The notes under the pieces were generated by a model that searched no databases, was not told where the DNA came from, and saw nothing but the letters and a program-made list of their open reading frames with translations. From positions 406,906,001 through 406,970,000 of the forward strand of contig OZ024740.1 in assembly GCA_964016885.1 (NCBI GenBank): a DNA stretch of 64,000 bases, given 5' to 3'. The position numbers were made by a program, and so were the translations under genes. Source of the DNA: Eledone cirrhosa (taxonomy: Eukaryota). Of the stretch, positions 53,590-62,985 are shown piece after piece (position 1 is the stretch's first letter; every line of letters starts with the position of its first letter).

Positions 53590-54982
53590 TCAGCAGCTAA
53601 CAATTGATGAAGGTAGTTTGTTCCATGCTTCAGCAACTCTGAGTGTGAAAAAATGTTTCCGAAAGTCATGGGAGCTGTGCTGTTTTCTAACTTTGTAGTC
53701 ATGCCCATGTGTGTTAGACACATAGAATTCAAAAAGGTGCTCAGGGTTGCTGTTGGCAAGATGGTTAATAATTTTGTGGGTGTTTACCAAGTCAGTTGCC
53801 AGACGTTGGAGCTTCAATGTATCCATGCCCAGGTAAGCAAGGCGTTCAGAGTATGGTAGATGCCTGATGGAGGGTATTTGCTTGGTTGCATGTCCCTGAA
53901 CAGTTTTCAGGAGGTCAATGTTCTGAGCAAGATAGGGGTTTCAGACTGATGATCAACTTCTAACTGTGGCCGCACCATAGCTATATATAGCTTTAAATAA
54001 ATAGATGGAGAGTGGCTGACAAAGGTCTTGCTGAGTGATGCTAAGACACCCTCGGCCTTCTTGACAATTTTAGAGACATGCTTTGTCCAACGCAAATCGC
54101 TGCTGACAGTAATGCCCAGGTCACGTTCACAAGAAGACTTCTTGATATTAGTGTTGTGGAGGGAGAATGTGGACGCTGGGTTTTTCCTCCTAAAATGCAT
54201 GGTGGTACACTTGTCCACAGCCAGCTTAAGTTGCCAGTCCATGATCCATTGCTGCATTATGTCTAGGTCTGATTGCAGGAATGATCTATAGTGTTCAGGA
54301 TCTGTCCTTTTTATCTCAAGGTACAGCTTAATGTCATCTGCATATTTCAGTACTGTGGCGTTCTTTAAGTTGGCATCTATGTCATTATTATTTGCAACAA
54401 ACAAAAGGGGACCAAGAACAGATCCCTGTGGTACACCAGATAACAACTCATACGGTGAAGAATGCTGTCCTAGAACCGTGACTCTTCGACTGAGAATAAA
54501 GGACTTCAACCAGTTAAAAAGATCATCCTTCACACCCATTGCAGAGAGTTTTTCCATAAGTCTTTTGTGTGGGACAGAATTGAAAGCTTTAGCAAAGTCA
54601 AGGTAAACAACATCCACCTATGAGCTGCCATCAGTGTCCAGGTGATGTCTTCAAGAAACTCGATAAGTTGATCACAGCAGCTGGAGTTAGGGATAAATCC
54701 AAATTGCAAGGGCCGGATAAGACTGTGAGAAATTCCAGAAATTCCAAAGTGTTTCTCTGGCACAGGATTCCATCAGTTTGACAATGCAGCTAGTAAGACT
54801 GACTGGACGATAGTTGACAAGCGAAGTTCGGTCACCCTTTTTGAACAGAGGAATGACACTGGTAGTTTTCCACTGCTCCAGAGTAGCACCATTGTTAAGA
54901 CAGAGTGAAAGCTAGTGCAGAAGAAGGTACCCACCATGTTTGAAAAGCAGGTACGTAACACCATCAAGACCAGGAGAGGCAT
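53590..54982 (-). pseudogene. LINE reverse transcriptase region, broken by frameshifts and stops
   Basis: ORF pieces 54773-54982, 54530-54763, 53907-54617 and 53590-53826 carry successive RT motifs (LDFAKAF, GVPQGSVLGP, YADD) split across frames and stops. Confidence 0.92.
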
Positions 54983-55510
54983 GGTTGCGCTTATTCTGAA
55001 GGTGACGTTGCAGCATTGCAGATGTAAATTCCATAGTTGTTATTGAATTTGATGTCAGAGGTGGTGGAGATGGTATGTTTTGGTTTTCAACAGTAAAAAT
55101 GCCTGCATAGCATTCAGCAATGAGTACTGCGCATTCTTTGGGGTCGTAAGTAATCTGCTTGTGTGGGGATTGAGAAGAGGACCAACTGGTGAGTGAGGCC
55201 TCTGCTTTGAGTGAACATATTTCTAGAACACCTTACTGTCACGGTTGTTGCTATGTGCTGTTCAAATTCAAGCACTGCCTTTTTTGTCACCTGCTTGAGA
55301 TGGTTGGATGATTTATTTCGCTTTTTTCTATTGGTATCTGATTTATGCAGTTTGTACTCACGTTCAGCATTACAACGTTCTTTCCTGGCAAGTTGGACTG
55401 CTGCAGTCTCCCAAATTGCACTTTTTGGCTGTTTTTTCTGCTTACGTGGCACTGATGCTGCACATGTTGTCCATATTGAGTTCAGGATGTTCTGGAGTAG
55501 TGTTGACATC

Positions 55511-56095
55511 TCAAGAGTCGTAAAATTCAAGCCAGTTTTGGCATTGCAGCTCGGTGCAGTAATAGTTCCAGTCTGCTTTATTCCAGTCAAAGTGAGCAGT
55601 TTGGAGATGGTTGTGGTTTTTGTTACTGCCCATGAGGGATAGATTGGCAATGATCATAGCATGATCAGAGTCACCTAAAGGTTCCTCAGTAGTAACACTA
55701 ATAACCGTTTCAGGAGTAGTGGTAAAGAGTAGATCCAAAGTGTTGTCACCTTTTGTGGGGGAAGTGACTACTTGAGTCCAGTAAACAACTCCAAGTAGAA
55801 GTGTTGACATAGTCATACCTATATCGCAAAAAAATACTTCTTGTTGTGATTGGTTCAAATCAATGCAAGGAATTGCTGAAAAGTTTGAACAAACGTAGAC
55901 CATTACACCACCACCACAACGGTTAATGCGGTCTTTGCGAAACAAGTTGTAGCCAGCTATGCTGAAAACCCCATCACAGAGTAAGCAATGTACCCATGTT
56001 TCCCTGACTGTAATGAAATTAGGGTTGATACTTTTGATGTAAGAATCAAAAAGATGTATCTTGTTGCATAAACTACGAGCATTTAATGACAACAA
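55511..56095 (-). pseudogene. LINE apurinic-like (APE) endonuclease domain with an internal deletion
   Basis: 194-aa ORF with N-x-R-S-L, ETW, DR..GGGV, LDL and SDH motifs. The GDFN block expected between GVVY and PT...LDL is absent. Confidence 0.88.
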
Positions 56096-56184
56096 TTTGT
56101 ACCTTGATTTCAGTTTATGATCTGGTTTTGACTACTATTTGGTACTATTTCAGCTCACTTAAATCATTAACTCTTCAAAGCTCC

Positions 56185-56867: not shown

Positions 56868-57317
56868 AGAAAGTGGAGTGAAGTTGAGAAAGGTGGAGTG
56901 TGACATAGAAAGGTGGAGTGTGACAGAGAAAGGTGGAGTGTAGCTGAGAAAGGTGGAGTGTGACAGAGAAGGGTGGAGTGTGACAGAGAAAGGTAGTGTG
57001 ACAGAGAAAGGTGGAGTGTAGCTGAGAAAGGTGGAGTGTGACAGAGAAAGGTGGAGTGTGACAGAAAAAGGTGGAGTGTGACAGAGAAGGGTGGAGTGTG
57101 ACAGAGAAAGGTGGAGTGTAGCTGAGAAAGGTGGAGTGTGACAGAGAAAGGTGGAGTATGACAGAAAAAGGTGGAGTGCAGCTGAGAATGGTGGAGTGTG
57201 ACAGAGAAAGATGGAGTGTAGCTGAGAAAGGTGGAGTGTAACAGAGAAGGGTGGAGTGTGACAGAGAAAGGTGGAGTGTGACAGAGAAAGGTGGAGTGTA
57301 GCTGAGAAAGGTAGAGT
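56868..57317. repeat. 20-bp purine-rich minisatellite, about 22 copies
   Basis: Unit AGAAAGGTGGAGTGTGACAG with a second variant AGAAAGGTGGAGTGTAGCTG. One unit near 56995 has a 2-bp deletion. Confidence 0.95.
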
Positions 57318-57696: not shown

Positions 57697-58209
57697 TTAA
57701 GTTACTAAGCAAGATCAAAGTATTTGACAAATAAACTGATAGGACTGAAGTTACAAAAAAATGCACAGAAAATGGAGACAAAAAAAAACAATGTGAGTAG
57801 TTATATTAAAGTGTCACATAAAATATATATTATTTCTAAACTAAAAAAAAAAAAATCTATATTCATATTTTAGTTTTTAAGAATCCCTAAAATTTTTCCA
57901 AACTTCCATAAGTGTGGTATTACAGGTAAAATACCATTATAATAAATTTTTCAGTATAATAAAAAATTTTTCAATCCCCGGCCACACGCTCGATGTGTTA
58001 GGTCAATCTCGTTATAAAGAACTTTTCATTAAAACAAATTATTTTTTATTGCCCGTGAATTTCATTGTGAATATATATATATATATCTATATATTAATAA
58101 GAGGAATTCCAACTTTATCTGATTTACTCGTTTTATTTACAATCTTTTAAAATTTATAATGGTATTATAAGGAAATAGTATGATAGAATATTAAATTCGA
58201 AGTGTTAAT

Positions 58210-58248
58210 TGAACAAGTACTTTCGTGCTTTCGCAATCTTCAGGTTCA
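58210..58248 (-). ncRNA. Minimal type I hammerhead ribozyme motif (left arm of the palindrome)
   Basis: Minus strand UGAAC-CUGAAGA-U-UGC-GAAA-GCA-C-GAA-AGUACU-U-GUUCA. It has a 5-bp stem I (UGAAC/GUUCA), the CUGANGA core, a 3-bp stem II with a GNRA loop, GAAA, a palindromic stem III region (AGUACU) and a UH site. Confidence 0.75.
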
Positions 58249-58321
58249 TAATATGTGGTGACAGTCAAGTTTGCAATTTTCAACTGTTGAAAATTGCAAA
58301 CTTGACTGTCACCACATATTA

Positions 58322-58360
58322 TGAACCTGAAGATTGCGAAAGCATGAAAGTACTTGTTCA
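58322..58360 (+). ncRNA. Minimal type I hammerhead ribozyme motif (right arm of the palindrome)
   Basis: TGAAC-CTGAAGA-T-TGC-GAAA-GCA-T-GAA-AGTACT-T-GTTCA. Same fold as the left-arm copy, with one C-to-T difference before GAAA. Confidence 0.72.
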
Positions 58361-58510
58361 ATTAACACTTAGAATTTAATATTCTATCATACTATTTCCT
58401 TATAATACCATTATAAATTTTAAAAGATTGTAAATAAAACGAGTAAATCAGACAAAGTTGGAATTCCTCTTATTAATATAATCTTCTATACACAATCATA
58501 CACACCCGTG

Positions 58511-58520
58511 TATATTTATC

Positions 58521-58568
<48 letters not shown>
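58511..58568. repeat. (TA)n microsatellite at the 3' end of Penelope-like element 1
   Basis: Interrupted TA dinucleotide run. Confidence 0.92.
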
Positions 58569-58571
<3 letters not shown>

Positions 58572-58618
58572 AATGAATAATAACAGGTAGACATCATAAA
58601 AAGGTAGTTTATTCCGTG

Positions 58619-58730
58619 TGCTTACAAGTGTTTCCACGGTGGTACTGCAGCCTAGTTCCGCTACGTGCAAATTCACAAGTATTTGCAGAACTCGAATATC
58701 CAATGCTGTGACCACTGTTTCCTCAGAGCA
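58619..58730 (-). ncRNA. Type I hammerhead ribozyme motif with a greatly extended stem II
   Basis: Minus strand UGCU-CUGAGGA-[85 nt closed by ACAGUGGU/ACCACCGU, with inner pairings CAGC/GCUG, AGUUC/GAACU, UGCAAAU/AUUUGCA]-GAAAC-ACUU-GUA-AGCA. Stem I is UGCU/AGCA and the cleavage triplet is GUA. Confidence 0.7.
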
Positions 58731-59223
58731 GAATGGTAAATATACAATGTAAAAACCCTTAAGTGGGGTTGTTGGGGAAGATAGAGTGGAACAGGAAGAG
58801 AGAAAAGTAGGGAAGATGGAGAGAGAAGGAAAGATATGCAGGGGTTGGAGAAGTAGGAGAGAGTGGCTTGTAGATATCTTAATCAAAATGTTATGGTAGG
58901 GGTTTTATTAGTTACTTTTGGAGAGATGCGTAGATAGTTGAGGTCGGAATTATTTATTGCCCCAGAGGTCAAGTTCATAGATGTTGAGAGGGAGGTAGGT
59001 CAAAGGTGAGAGAGAGAGAGTGTAATGGATGTAGAGAGAGATATATAGGTAGAGAGGGGACAGATAAAGTATATGTGGTGAGTGAACTTTTGGTTTTGTA
59101 GTAGTAATCTAGGAATTGTACTGAGTTACCATGTATAGTGATAAGCAGTGTATTGTCTTGTAGTGTGGGGGAGAAGAGAAGGTTGTTAGCTAGAAAGTGG
59201 TGTTGTAGTTACGGGTTCGAATG

Positions 59224-61323
59224 TTAAGTTATTTTATAGTGAGAGAATTTAGCTTTTAGTTTGTGGTTGCAGTATAATGATCGTTCAATTCTATCGTTAA
59301 GTAGTTTGTTTTTGGATTTTAGTATGTAAAATAGCTCAAGGTTACATAACCTGCAGTACTTCAAACCACTCCGATATGCATTTGCGCTGGAAAGTATATC
59401 CCATTTTAAGGTGAACTGTTGGTTGTGTTCACGGAGTTGCCAGGTCTTGTTGGCGAGCGTGGTCACAAAACGGTGATTCTGATGTTTGATTGAGAATCGA
59501 TGACGGTACCAGCGAGATTTAAACGATGTGGTGGTAGATCCGATATAATACCATTTCTGGTCGTCCGATTCAACCGTGCATTGGTAAACAATGTTGGACT
59601 TTAGGCATTCATTCTGCAATGGACATCTTTCAGGTAGATGGCAGTTACATGCTTTGTTGTGGGTAGCGGGTATACCATGGATAGGTTGTGATAGCGGTAC
59701 AGGTGGGTTGTGCAATATCCGTCTCCCATTTAGTGGTTGGGAGGCAGATATTGCGTTCTGCCCACCTGTTACTAAGATGTTTTGTTTTGTAGAGTTGTTT
59801 AATTGCCTTAAGTTAAGTTTTTTTATGTATGCTTCAAGGTTTGGTGCCGTGGAGTATGATAGTCTAATAGTTTTGGAGTTCAGAATTTTGCTGTACTTAT
59901 GGGAACTAGGGAAGTGTTTATTGATTAATTTAAAGAATGAAAGAGATAGTTTTGTACTAATCGAGGCATTAAAAATAGGATTATACCAGATATACTTTCT
60001 ACAACGTGATTTATTTGGTGGTGAACTTCTATTATTAGTATGTCTGGTAGTATAGTGTGTGTGTGCTTGTGTTTTAGTCCCCCGGTTACGAATACCTTGA
60101 TTACGTGTAGAGCTATGTGTGTTGTGGAAATTACTATCGATGTATTCTATTGTATCCCGGTGGTCAGCATTCCTTAATGCATTATTGTAGTATTCAGCAT
60201 GTTCGCTAAAAATATCAGAGTTAGACGATAGGCGAGAGATTCTAAGAGAAATACTCCGGGGAACTGATTTGATCATGGAGAGTGGGTGGTTAGAGTTAAA
60301 GTTAATATACGTAAGGTTCTCATTTACCTTGTGGAAGGGTCGTATCTGTCCGGTATTTAAATTAAGAGTTACGTCCAGAAAGTTTACTACCTTAAGATTG
60401 TATTCGTATGTTATTTTTAGGCCCAGTTCACTAAAAGATCTTCTAATATTTTTCCGTAGCCTTTCAAGATTTTGGTTATTCAAGTTATTAACTAATAAGA
60501 GCCCGTCATCTCTATATATCCCCCCCTGTAGATTACTAAATCTACTATGTAATATGTGGGCTATGTAAATTCCCACGAGATCCGTGACCTCCGCCGAGTC
60601 GTTGGAACCCATGGTAATATCGAAATTTGTGGGTCTGTCCTTACGTTCCCAGTAGCAGTTATCGAACTTAATAATGGTTTTTCTAGCCTCGAGAATAATA
60701 TTAATTTCTTCCTCCGTTAGGTCGGAATTGGCCTTAGCAAACGATAGGGCCTTACGTAAAGTGCTTGGTGAGATGGAAGAGTAGTATTCGTCTATGTCAA
60801 ATTGTATAAACTTAGATTTATTCTTATTCTTAACATTATTAAACCAGCGAATTGCTTCGCTAGTGTTGCCCCATAATTTAATTTCAATTTTCTTTTTCAC
60901 TTGAGTTATTACTCTGTCAAGTATATGTTTACTAATTTTCCCTATGTCTGATTTAGAAGGGCATATAAGTCTAATCTTAGGGTTAGAGTCAAAATTTACC
61001 TTATGGTCCTTCAGGTTGAAGGTGGGGGTAGCGGGTATAATCGGCTCGGTTCTATCGTCTATCTTGAGATTCTTTACCACTTTGTATGCCTCGTTGTTAA
61101 TATTTGCTAGCGTAGTTTCATTTGTTTTTCTATATTTTTTGTGTAGTTCGTTGCGTATGAAGTTATTATACGTATCGATATCCATGGTATACACGTTAGA
61201 AGTCTTGTCAGCTTTCACAACAATTCCATTGGTATTTTGCAATCTTCGGAGTAGTGCTTTCATGTTGTTCTGCAGCTCATTATTTCTATGTCTGTTGAAC
61301 TTAATGTTCATGGTAGTTTTCAA
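59224..61323 (-). CDS. Penelope-like reverse transcriptase / GIY-YIG endonuclease polyprotein (699 aa open frame)
   Basis: RT motifs KADKT, LKDHK..PKIRLICP, QFDIDEYYSSI, ITMGS..SAEV, GIYRDDGL, VNFLDVTL and YINFNSNHP. Linker IWYNP and CNCHLPERCPL. GIY-YIG as IVYQ..YYIG..FKSRWYRH, then CRLCNLE and LLN. The frame stays open upstream through EAFEQDLL to about 61345, so the annotated start is probably not the native one. Confidence 0.9.
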   Translation of the reverse strand: MKTTMNIKFNRHRNNELQNNMKALLRRLQNTNGIVVKADKTSNVYTMDIDTYNNFIRNELHKKYRKTNETTLANINNEAYKVVKNLKIDDRTEPIIPATPTFNLKDHKVNFDSNPKIRLICPSKSDIGKISKHILDRVITQVKKKIEIKLWGNTSEAIRWFNNVKNKNKSKFIQFDIDEYYSSISPSTLRKALSFAKANSDLTEEEINIILEARKTIIKFDNCYWERKDRPTNFDITMGSNDSAEVTDLVGIYIAHILHSRFSNLQGGIYRDDGLLLVNNLNNQNLERLRKNIRRSFSELGLKITYEYNLKVVNFLDVTLNLNTGQIRPFHKVNENLTYINFNSNHPLSMIKSVPRSISLRISRLSSNSDIFSEHAEYYNNALRNADHRDTIEYIDSNFHNTHSSTRNQGIRNRGTKTQAHTHYTTRHTNNRSSPPNKSRCRKYIWYNPIFNASISTKLSLSFFKLINKHFPSSHKYSKILNSKTIRLSYSTAPNLEAYIKKLNLRQLNNSTKQNILVTGGQNAISASQPLNGRRILHNPPVPLSQPIHGIPATHNKACNCHLPERCPLQNECLKSNIVYQCTVESDDQKWYYIGSTTTSFKSRWYRHRFSIKHQNHRFVTTLANKTWQLREHNQQFTLKWDILSSANAYRSGLKYCRLCNLELFYILKSKNKLLNDRIERSLYCNHKLKAKFSHYKIT

Positions 61324-61398
61324 TAAGTCCTGTTCGAAAGCTTCCCATATCCAGTGTAGTAATTAACCATCACTGCATCTTGGATAATCCTATACCTA

Positions 61399-61444
61399 AT
61401 ATATATATATATATATATATATGTACATATATACATATATATAT
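61399..61444. repeat. (TA)n microsatellite between the two Penelope-like elements
   Basis: Interrupted TA run directly abutting both 5' ends. Confidence 0.9.
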
Positions 61445-62497
61445 GGTTGGCCTTTTTATCTTAGACATATTACGTGTTAGATTCCCGGACTTCCACACAG
61501 GAATATACCGCGACGATGGACTGACTTTATCGAGCCATAAAAGTGGTCACGACCTCGACCGGTTTAAAAAAGACTTAGCTTCTACCTTCAATGAGTTAGG
61601 CCTTAGGATAACAGTAGCCACCAACCTCTCTAGCGTAGACTTCTTAGACATTAATTTAGACCTTCGCATGCACACCCACAGACCCTTCCATAAGCTAAAC
61701 GAGAAACTTAATTACATTCACAAGGACTCATGCCACCCTCCCACTGTTTTTAGAAACTCCGTTAAGAATATCAGTACTAGAATCTCAAACCACTCCTCTA
61801 ATAAGGCTATCTTTGACAGGGCAGCACCCTACTATAACACGCGTTAGCTAACAGCGGCTTCTCACAACCTATCACCTACTCTCCCACTAGCAACAACACC
61901 ATTAAGAAAAGTAAGCGCAACAATAGACAAACTATCTGGTTCTCTCCTCCCTTCTCACTCAACGTTAAAACCAATGTAGGAAAAAAATGTCTAGCCCTCT
62001 TAGATAGACACTTTCCCATAGGTCATAAATACCGCTCCATCTTTAACCGACACAAAGTAAAACTAGGATACTCCTGTGCTAAGAACATGAAGGCCCACAT
62101 CACCAGCAGCATTAGGAACAACACCCCACCAGGGTGCTCTTGCCGTAAGCCTGAAGCTTGCCCCCTTCAACAGCAATGCAACACACCCGCTGTAATGTAT
62201 GAAGCTGTGGTCACTTCCAACCGACCAAACGAACCAGAGTAGGTCAAATCCTATGTGGGCATGGCGGAGGGCCGATTCAAGGAGCGTTTCCTGAACCACA
62301 AGTCTACCTTCAGATACCCGGACAGACGTTCATCCACGAGACTCGCGAGCCACGTATGGTCCCTCAAGGACTCAAGTATAGGCTACTCCATTCAATGGAA
62401 AGCCATCACTAAGTCCAAGCCATACGCAAGGGGAAATCCGACGTGTGGTTTATGTATTGACGAACGAATAACTATCCTAAGCTTCCTGTTCATATAA
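61443..62497 (+). pseudogene. Penelope-like RT (C-terminal half) + GIY-YIG pseudo-ORF
   Basis: GIYRDDGL, VDFLDINLDL and YIHKDSCHP, then a frameshift near 61840. The next frame gives IWFSPPFS, RHFPIGHKY, CSCRKPEACPL and VMYEAVV, an in-frame TAG at 62240-62242, then SYVG..FKERFLNH..CGLCIDE. The C-terminal LN.R.E..C.H segment seen in element 1 is missing. Confidence 0.88.
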
Positions 62498-62553
62498 CCA
62501 TACACATCCGGAGCTGAAGATCCACTAAGGTGAAACAATTGCTCTCGGTATGG
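62498..62553 (+). ncRNA. Degenerate minimal hammerhead-like motif
   Basis: GAG-CTGAAGA-T-CC-ACTAA-GG-T-GAAA-CAATTG-CT-CTC, with a palindromic stem III (CAATTG) and outer pairing CCATAC/GTATGG. The conserved U before the cleavage base appears as C. Confidence 0.55.
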
Positions 62554-62985
62554 TCAACTAACTGTTGTGTAACCACTTCTACCTAATTCGTCCCTTGGAC
62601 AGAGTGCTCTATCACTACGGATATTACCTTCCAGTGTTCCACCACTCTATATATATATATATATAAATTTTAGTACAGCATTAACAAAGCTTTAGAACAC
62701 GGCCAAGCTAACGAATGCATAATCGGTCTGTAGCTTTAGCACTAGGATGAGGAAGAACCCCAGAGTAATAACATTACGTTCAGACAGCTCAGCAAATCAG
62801 ATATAGCGGTCGGCAGTCCAGCCAGATCACTAGAGCAACGAAAATACAGGACCCAGAAAAAGATTTTATACTGACCCGGACAGAGCGGTGAGGCTGAGTG
62901 CAAAATATATAACTTACATCGTATATCACACAATATACATCACATAGAACACCCAACATCAGCGCTAAGTTTCTGCAAATCCAAG

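What the first reader, a model, noticed from the sequence alone, without database searches (positions are those of the whole stretch)
58090..58480. Stand-alone 391-bp palindrome carrying a hammerhead ribozyme on each strand
Seen: two 195-bp arms with a 1-nt spacer and three mismatches. Each arm, read outward from the centre, has a minimal type I hammerhead (UGAAC-CUGAAGA-stem II-GAA-AGUACU-U-GUUCA), an AATAAA and a TA-rich end. It has no ORF and I see no similarity to the 3' ends of the two neighbouring Penelope-like elements. Established: Penelope-like pLTRs carry minimal hammerheads with a palindromic stem III thought to act as dimers, and these elements form inverted 5'-truncated structures. 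Inference: this is a head-to-head pair of 3' termini from a third family, possibly a non-autonomous fold-back ribozyme retroelement. A read-through transcript from either strand would form a 195-bp dsRNA that masks its own ribozyme and could be an ADAR or Dicer substrate.
Basis: partly seen in the sequence, partly recalled or inferred. Interest (0 to 1): 0.75.

Follow-up and report, generated by a model that had tools for sequence, protein, structure and literature searches.

The report
Twin run-off Penelope retrotransposon palindrome
This 391-base mirror-image repeat is one of more than a thousand back-to-back stubs of a Penelope-type jumping gene in this genome; the stubs meet at one fixed spot, likely where the element's RNA begins, and each was likely built on landing by copying that RNA from both cut DNA strands, which would help explain how these elements make their inverted ends.

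Summary
The palindrome is real: 195-bp arms, 1-nt centre, three mismatches, a minimal hammerhead motif per arm. It is not stand-alone. The arm is the end of the pseudo-LTR, and also the 5' UTR, of a 4.2-kb Neptune-like Penelope element found elsewhere in the genome. The right arm continues into that element's 40-nt tail.

The same centre recurs exactly 582 times, 1,116 with variant joints. It lies 31 nt after a TATA-like box of the parent; only 11 joints sit at the ribozyme cut.

In 106 of 107 full palindromes exactly one arm has the tail. Arms share variants within a locus, form no left/right lineages, and the centre base is A:T 21:20. Each palindrome was therefore built afresh. Best model (0.65): both nicked strands prime on the element's RNA, both cDNAs run off its 5' end and join by microhomology.

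The architecture is in print (PMC4209133, PMC8557442). No RNA data were available, and 393 arms show no editing footprint. The scan already noted this class in this and other genomes.

The parts
58090..58284 (-). Left, untailed arm: parent positions 1-195 read outward, ending at a TA-like site (inferred second priming site). Carries the three changes from the family majority (60C, 86C, 168T).
58281..58289 (.). Head-to-head joint CAAC-T-GTTG; the fixed family centre, inferred RNA 5' end (ACAG), 31 nt after the parent's TATA-like box
58286..58480 (+). Right arm: parent positions 1-195 (end of pLTR and 5' UTR of the full-length element)
58322..58360 (+). Minimal type I hammerhead motif; predicted cut 58355/58356 (CUU); U.U in place of G10.1-C11.1; zero-loop palindromic stem III (dimer type)
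   Evidence: cleavage untested; no Rfam hit
58210..58248 (-). Mirror copy of the hammerhead motif
58481..58523 (+). Penelope 'tail' (about 40 nt, predicted 7-bp stem with AC-rich loop), on this arm only; in the parent it lies just before the ORF1 ATG
58071..58089 (.). (TA)n target, left side; no target-site duplication can be resolved
58524..58568 (.). (TA)n target, right side; the 3' end of an unrelated, very young neighbouring Penelope-like element abuts it

Best explanation
The palindrome is a single, ORF-less insertion of the pseudo-LTR end of a Neptune-like Penelope retrotransposon, likely built at this site by two target-primed cDNAs that both ran off the 5' end of the element's RNA and were joined head to head. 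Shown: arm identity, parent, fixed centre, one-sided tail, same-template arms, split centre base. Inferred: (1) the parent's pLTR promoter (three CCAAT-like boxes, TATA-like box at -31) starts an RNA at ACAG; (2) the RT-GIY-YIG enzyme nicks both strands of a (TA)n target; (3) the two 3' ends prime at the two TA-like sites flanking the tail (about 195 and 235), as the Anolis enzyme does in vitro (PMC11167929); (4) when the 5'-proximal sites are used, both cDNAs stop at the RNA 5' end, like a retroviral strong-stop product; (5) the two ends ending ACTGT pair across a T.T mismatch and are filled in, so the centre resolves to A or T at random. One RNA copied twice with strand displacement, or two RNAs from one locus, is not resolved. 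The hammerhead is a passenger here: copied through, not used to set the end, and decaying after insertion.
For: Parent unit of 4,207 bp in tandem in L114: promoter motifs, arm, tail, ATG, ORF1, RT-GIY-YIG. Fixed end: 13 of 30 arms sampled by an internal 25-mer begin within -3..+6 of the centre; in 28 of 28 arms without the parent promoter, the exact match to parent upstream sequence ends within 0-4 nt; 1,116 joints here versus 11 at the hammerhead cut. Tail on exactly one arm in 106 of 107 distinct full palindromes, never on two (35/35, one of them classed by hand; 14/15; 45/45 and 16/16; 4 loci shared between sets). Same template: 2.0% within versus 5.1% between loci; a microsatellite length variant on both arms in 12, one arm in 1, neither in 32; shared private indels, e.g. 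39 nt in L091. Two cDNA ends: centre A:T 21:20 with the tail on the right, 15:14 in the youngest subfamily; the untailed arm keeps the full ACAG while the tailed arm is trimmed in 7 of 46 young loci, the reverse in 10; some joints hold two complete ACAG ends (L120, L125, L132, L135). Arm mismatches are not depleted near the centre (2.9% versus 0.9-1.3%), against later centre flipping. Hammerhead core 2.2% versus rest 1.5% rare changes.
Against: No RNA evidence for the start site; the promoter is read from motifs whose consensus I recall. A cap-derived extra G is weak: 13 of 23 spacer-joint ends have G before ACAG, but by my reading only 3 of these cannot be explained by the other arm, and only 1 of 15 true solo copies has it. 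Long ORF1-bearing copies mostly pass the site: 3 of 30 stop there, 19 extend upstream, 8 stop inside the UTR; this needs tandem read-through RNAs or template jumps. About 17-18 of 74 palindromes have one arm of only 16-37 nt, and short templated inserts occur (L134, L150, L170), so DNA-templated copy-back does happen. Shared private variants (14 versus 63 unshared) also fit copy-back or conversion. Centre base trends A in young (9:5) and T in older (7:14) loci of the first set. Samples are the first loci listed on contigs C1-C3, selected by exact motifs.
Confidence: 0.65

Rival explanations
1. Snap-back: one tail-primed cDNA folds back at its 3' end, copies itself to position 195 and is joined to the other target end (self-priming, as proposed in PMC3846280).
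For: Explains one tail only, shared private variants, short templated inserts and 16-37-nt arms.
Against: Predicts centre A with the tail on the right and an intact tailed arm; observed 21:20 and 15:14, and an intact untailed arm in 7 of 46. It would need a 1-nt hairpin loop. No sign of centre-local homogenisation that could flip the centre later.
Confidence: 0.15
2. Twin priming as in the best model, but the fixed centre is an RT pause or RNA processing site in a longer RNA, not the capped start.
For: 19 of 30 long copies pass the site; weak cap signature; the parent has a pyrimidine-rich CAG there that resembles a splice acceptor; the D. virilis Penelope promoter is internal and TATA-less (PMC2377424, passages).
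Against: Textbook -31 spacing to a TATA-like box with CCAAT-like boxes upstream. Ends lie 4 nt before the AG boundary, not after it. The arm has no unusual predicted structure (z -0.11). It is not the hammerhead cut.
Confidence: 0.15
3. One reading: a non-autonomous fold-back ribozyme retroelement that transposes as a whole palindrome.
For: At least 582 copies with one centre; constant outer ends.
Against: No arm-specific lineages; both centre bases within subfamilies; a spectrum of independent joints and solo arms with the same start; the palindrome lacks the parent's promoter; the ribozyme is not conserved after insertion.
Confidence: 0.04
4. Assembly or library fold-back chimera, or a DNA-transposon TIR pair.
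For: No read-derived contig spans this exact locus.
Against: Arms differ at three sites, ends are asymmetric in a family-wide pattern, read contigs cross the centre, and the arm lies directly downstream of an RT-GIY-YIG ORF.
Confidence: 0.01

Closest known systems
EN+ Penelope-like insertions with an inverted 5'-truncated copy and a one-sided 30-40-bp tail (Craig et al. 2021, PMC8557442; Arkhipova et al. 2013, PMC3846280; passages read)
   Same: Head-to-head arrangement, tail at one end only, (TA)n target; longer copies of this family show the same layout (L110, L113, L115).
   Different: Both copies are cut at one fixed base, giving a uniform ORF-less 435-bp class of more than 1,000 loci; the joints favour two cDNA ends over the self-priming proposed in PMC3846280.
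Dual minimal hammerheads on opposite strands about 100-700 bp apart in Schistosoma PLE remnants (Cervera and De la Pena 2014, PMC4209133; parts 1-2 of 4 read)
   Same: Same arrangement, minimal type I core, palindromic stem III, link to pLTRs.
   Different: Lacks G10.1-C11.1, has only a 3-bp stem II; the parent, copy number and joint anatomy are resolved here.
Poseidon of Anolis carolinensis in vitro (Frangieh et al. 2024, PMC11167929; parts 1-2 of 4 read)
   Same: Two RT start sites bracketing the tail, AC-rich stem-loop, both target strands cut and extended, hammerhead cleavage not needed for insertion.
   Different: Different clade; sites lie in the 5' UTR here, inside the ORF there; the parts read do not describe run-off palindromes.
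Animal non-LTR retrozymes (bioRxiv 10.64898/2026.07.22.740005; part 1 of 5 read)
   Same: Short, non-coding, pLTR-derived, type I hammerhead.
   Different: Not a tandem array; no cut-to-cut monomer; ends are not at the ribozyme.
L1 twin priming and retroviral strong-stop DNA (recalled, no call)
   Same: Two target ends priming on the RNA; RT running off the RNA 5' end.
   Different: L1 twin priming gives an inversion without large duplication; here both cDNAs cover the same 195 nt.

Membership tests
EN+ Penelope-like element (parent) | RT followed by C-terminal GIY-YIG endonuclease | tested here: met
   Pfam GIY-YIG 27.9 bits (cut-off 22.6); RVT_1 E 3e-6 but 27.6 bits, below its 29.6 cut-off; relatives carry both
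EN+ Penelope-like element (parent) | Partial tandems forming pLTRs; inverted 5'-truncated copy; one-sided tail | tested here: met
EN+ Penelope-like element (parent) | Hammerhead motif in the pLTR | tested here: met
Neptune clade | CX2-5CxxC linker and CCHH motif in the endonuclease (PMC8557442) | tested here: met
   C-x4-C-x2-C before the GIY-YIG core, CxxC inside it, two downstream His, read from the translation
Neptune clade | RT phylogeny with named Neptune versus Nematis references | not tested
   No named reference elements among the sequences fetched; hence 'Neptune-like'
Minimal type I hammerhead | Catalytic core C3-A9, G12-A14, A15.1-U16.1, H17; stem I; palindromic stem III | tested here: met
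   (dimer co-fold -18.0 kcal/mol versus -5.0 monomer)
Minimal type I hammerhead | G10.1-C11.1 pair | tested here: not met
   U.U in 64 of 65 ungapped arms at position 60
Minimal type I hammerhead | Selection on the motif | tested here: inconclusive
   0 of 13 subfamily variants fall in its 39 nt (about 3 expected); no protection after insertion
Minimal type I hammerhead | Self-cleavage | not testable with these tools
   needs an assay
Non-LTR retrozyme | Tandem head-to-tail monomers bounded by hammerhead cuts | tested here: not met
   head-to-head pair; 11 joints at the cut versus 1,116 at the centre
Non-autonomous element moving as a unit (MITE or SINE-like) | Copies descend from master copies of the whole unit | tested here: not met

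The most novel reading that the evidence does not exclude
Penelope-like elements make a strong-stop-like cDNA from the capped 5' end of their RNA and prime twice on a single RNA (or on an RNA dimer held by the hammerhead's palindromic stem III). These palindromes are then a 1,000-copy fossil record that maps the start site to the base and shows the sense-strand, two-primer origin of the class's inverted ends and one-sided tail.
Probability: 0.45. Interest if true: 0.65.

Novelty: new variant of a known kind. Interest (0 to 1): 0.45.

Why it matters
How Penelope-like elements form their inverted structures is stated as open (PMC8557442), and the printed proposal is self-priming on an antisense template (PMC3846280). 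This family gives countable features that separate the models (one tail in 106 of 107, centre base near 50:50, either arm intact, fixed end at promoter distance). It also supplies a defined protein, RNA and target for an in vitro test. Over a thousand near-perfect 400-bp hairpins are also a potential source of double-stranded RNA and of genome instability, though no function is shown. The locus itself is an ordinary copy.

Tried and rejected
Rfam: no hammerhead hit; the miRNA hits are hairpin artefacts below their thresholds. RNA runs: no RNA holder listed, so no statement on expression. Ribozyme cut as the end-defining event: 11 joints, 2 of them exact. ADAR footprint: A>G 85 on 78 A versus T>C 79 on 66 T in 393 arms, at most 3 A>G per arm; shared rare variants lean A>G (7 of 24 versus 12 of 100 unshared, p 0.055), not significant, and only 1 of 4 in the youngest set. 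Two different RNAs per palindrome: 17 loci mixed at position 35 versus 131 concordant; linked markers agree in most, leaving about 3 candidates (L078, L290, L292), so rare at most. Cap G: inconclusive. The sigma-70 scan, phage tblastn (no match) and PDB search of the neighbour were uninformative. Rows dropped: 4 of 35 loci with misaligned indels; 7 of 35. One search stopped on a script error after printing the tail counts. Not-in-print claim rests on seven searches of the open library; none returned a paper on fixed-centre run-off palindromes. Lunse et al. 2017 (recalled) is not held, and no supplements or Repbase entries were seen, so such stubs may be described there. The neighbour family sample was selected for long copies and cannot show whether it has a fixed-centre class.

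Full report
Observation. The inverted repeat has arms 58090-58284 and 58286-58480, centre T58285 and three mismatches. Each arm carries, read outward, a minimal type I hammerhead motif with a zero-loop palindromic stem III. Two copies co-fold into the dimer form at -18.0 kcal/mol against -5.0 for the monomer. Rfam finds no hammerhead. The motif has U.U where PMC4209133 reports a conserved G10.1-C11.1 pair, so activity is uncertain.

Parent. A search of the own genome with one arm gave 42 near-full-arm matches at 95-100% among 40 scored of 203 candidates. In L009, L021 and L027 the arm follows a 3' UTR and an RT-GIY-YIG frame. L114 holds a tandem with a 4,207-bp period: CCAAT-like boxes, TATA-like box, arm, 40-nt tail, ATG of a 395-aa ORF1, then a 728-aa RT-GIY-YIG frame with a C-x4-C-x2-C linker and CCHH motif. 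These are the Neptune/Nematis features listed in PMC8557442 (passages). Named protein relatives are mostly from bivalve molluscs and their symbiont assemblies. The arm is thus both the end of the pLTR and the 5' UTR. Neither neighbour in the window matches it.

Abundance. Exact-match counts, all lower bounds with controls at 0: 7,061 for an internal arm 25-mer; 4,805 for the arm start, of which 1,353 have the parent's upstream bases; 130 for the ORF1 start; 582 for this exact centre; 1,116 for head-to-head joints with up to 30 nt between; 11 for joints at the hammerhead cut.

Fixed end. Of 30 arms sampled by an internal motif, 13 begin within -3..+6 of the centre; the other 17 are spread over more than 1.4 kb. 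In all 28 arms without the promoter, identity to parent upstream sequence stops within 0-4 nt, most often at ACAG. That A lies 31 nt after the first T of the TATA-like box. I infer a transcription start; the consensus motifs are recalled. Against a hard stop: of 30 ORF1-bearing copies 3 end there, 19 pass it and 8 end inside the UTR. The cap-G sign is weak.

One tail. The right arm continues 58481-58523 into a stretch that is the parent's tail; the left arm stops at position 195 in TA. Exactly one arm is tailed in 35 of 35 (L095 classed by hand), 14 of 15, 45 of 45 and 16 of 16 full palindromes: 106 of 107 distinct loci, none with two. PMC8557442 describes the one-sided tail. PMC11167929 shows in vitro that the tail is the stretch between two RT start sites, that both target strands are cut and extended, and that hammerhead cleavage is not needed.

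Built afresh from one source. Arms within a locus differ by 2.0% and between loci by 5.1%, with no left/right lineages (5.0, 5.3, 5.1%; 35 loci). Subfamily variants agree between arms (184T: both 13, one 0, neither 22). In the youngest subfamily a microsatellite variant is on both arms in 12, one in 1, neither in 32. Loci mixed at position 35 number 17 against 131; linked markers mostly agree, leaving about three candidates for two different templates.

Two cDNA ends. With the tail on the right the centre is A in 21 and T in 20, and 15:14 in the youngest set. A fold-back of the tailed cDNA would always give A. In 7 of 46 young loci the untailed arm keeps the full ACAG and the tailed arm is trimmed, the reverse in 10. 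Several joints hold two complete ends. Mismatches are not depleted near the centre, so later flipping is unlikely. The ACTGT ends are self-complementary except for a central T.T, which explains the commonest joint. Against: 17-18 of 74 loci have one arm of 16-37 nt, and short templated inserts occur, so copy-back operates at least sometimes.

Ribozyme and RNA fate. Copies run through the hammerhead. After insertion it changes as fast as the rest (2.2% versus 1.5%), while none of 13 subfamily variants falls in it, a weak hint of selection in active elements. A read-through RNA would fold at -296.6 kcal/mol, but no RNA run was listed and 393 arms show no editing footprint. Read-derived contigs cross the family centre and their summed depth falls about tenfold at the same site on the parent (not a copy number).

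Comparison and verdict. Opposite-strand minimal hammerhead pairs 100-700 bp apart are noted in PMC4209133, and head-to-head palindromic joints in PMC3846280, which proposes self-priming on an antisense template. Seven literature searches found no account of a fixed-centre run-off class; subscription papers and supplements were not seen. Earlier unchecked notes of this scan describe the same class: 313 findings hold the search words in at least 39 genomes, and several are in this genome. My reading was recorded before seeing them; they prompted the one-versus-two-RNA and editing tests. Verdict: real, a known architecture in a sharply defined variant, useful as a test bed for mechanism. Interest 0.45.

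Noticed in passing
window 1-52663: A 46-bp satellite, about 1,145 copies, 96% matches; it lacks stop codons on the plus strand and so gives long spurious frames.
   Followed up: no
window 58569-61362 (minus): Neighbouring Penelope-like element, 712-aa frame with RWK, DKT and CxCX5C motifs, as PMC8557442 describes for the Hydra clade. Very young: 40 of 40 scored copies are 100% identical over 226 nt. Its copies also show two 3' ends, with and without a tail.
   Followed up: partly
L239, L240 and other neighbour-family loci, 3' flank: The neighbour family's tail holds a hammerhead-like stretch that is absent from the untailed copy in the window.
   Followed up: no
window 61440-62650 (plus): A second, broken Hydra-like element with a degenerate hammerhead-like motif at 62508-62550, again with U on both sides of stem II.
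   Followed up: partly
window 53907-56131 (minus): Fragments of an endonuclease-RT non-LTR element: RVT_1 E 4e-24, weak Exo_endo_phos_2.
   Followed up: no
window 56886-57317: 20-bp minisatellite, about 22 copies.
   Followed up: no
L061, L062, L065, L072, L077, L085, L086, L096, L116, L118, L120-L123, L128, L137: One arm stops after only 16-37 nt, four times at position 26, the end of a small local palindrome; copy-back, internal second priming or later deletion are all open.
   Followed up: partly
L284-L300, arm position 35: C/T disagreement between arms is more frequent than the background rate suggests; the T form perfects a local inverted repeat, a possible template-switch hot spot.
   Followed up: partly
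L114 8607-5025 (minus): In this copy ORF1 (395 aa) and the RT frame are in different frames; whether this is a natural frameshift or damage was not checked.
   Followed up: no
run X5 (organism B): A second organism holds pieces of this family, including promoter and arm, with few differences.
   Followed up: partly
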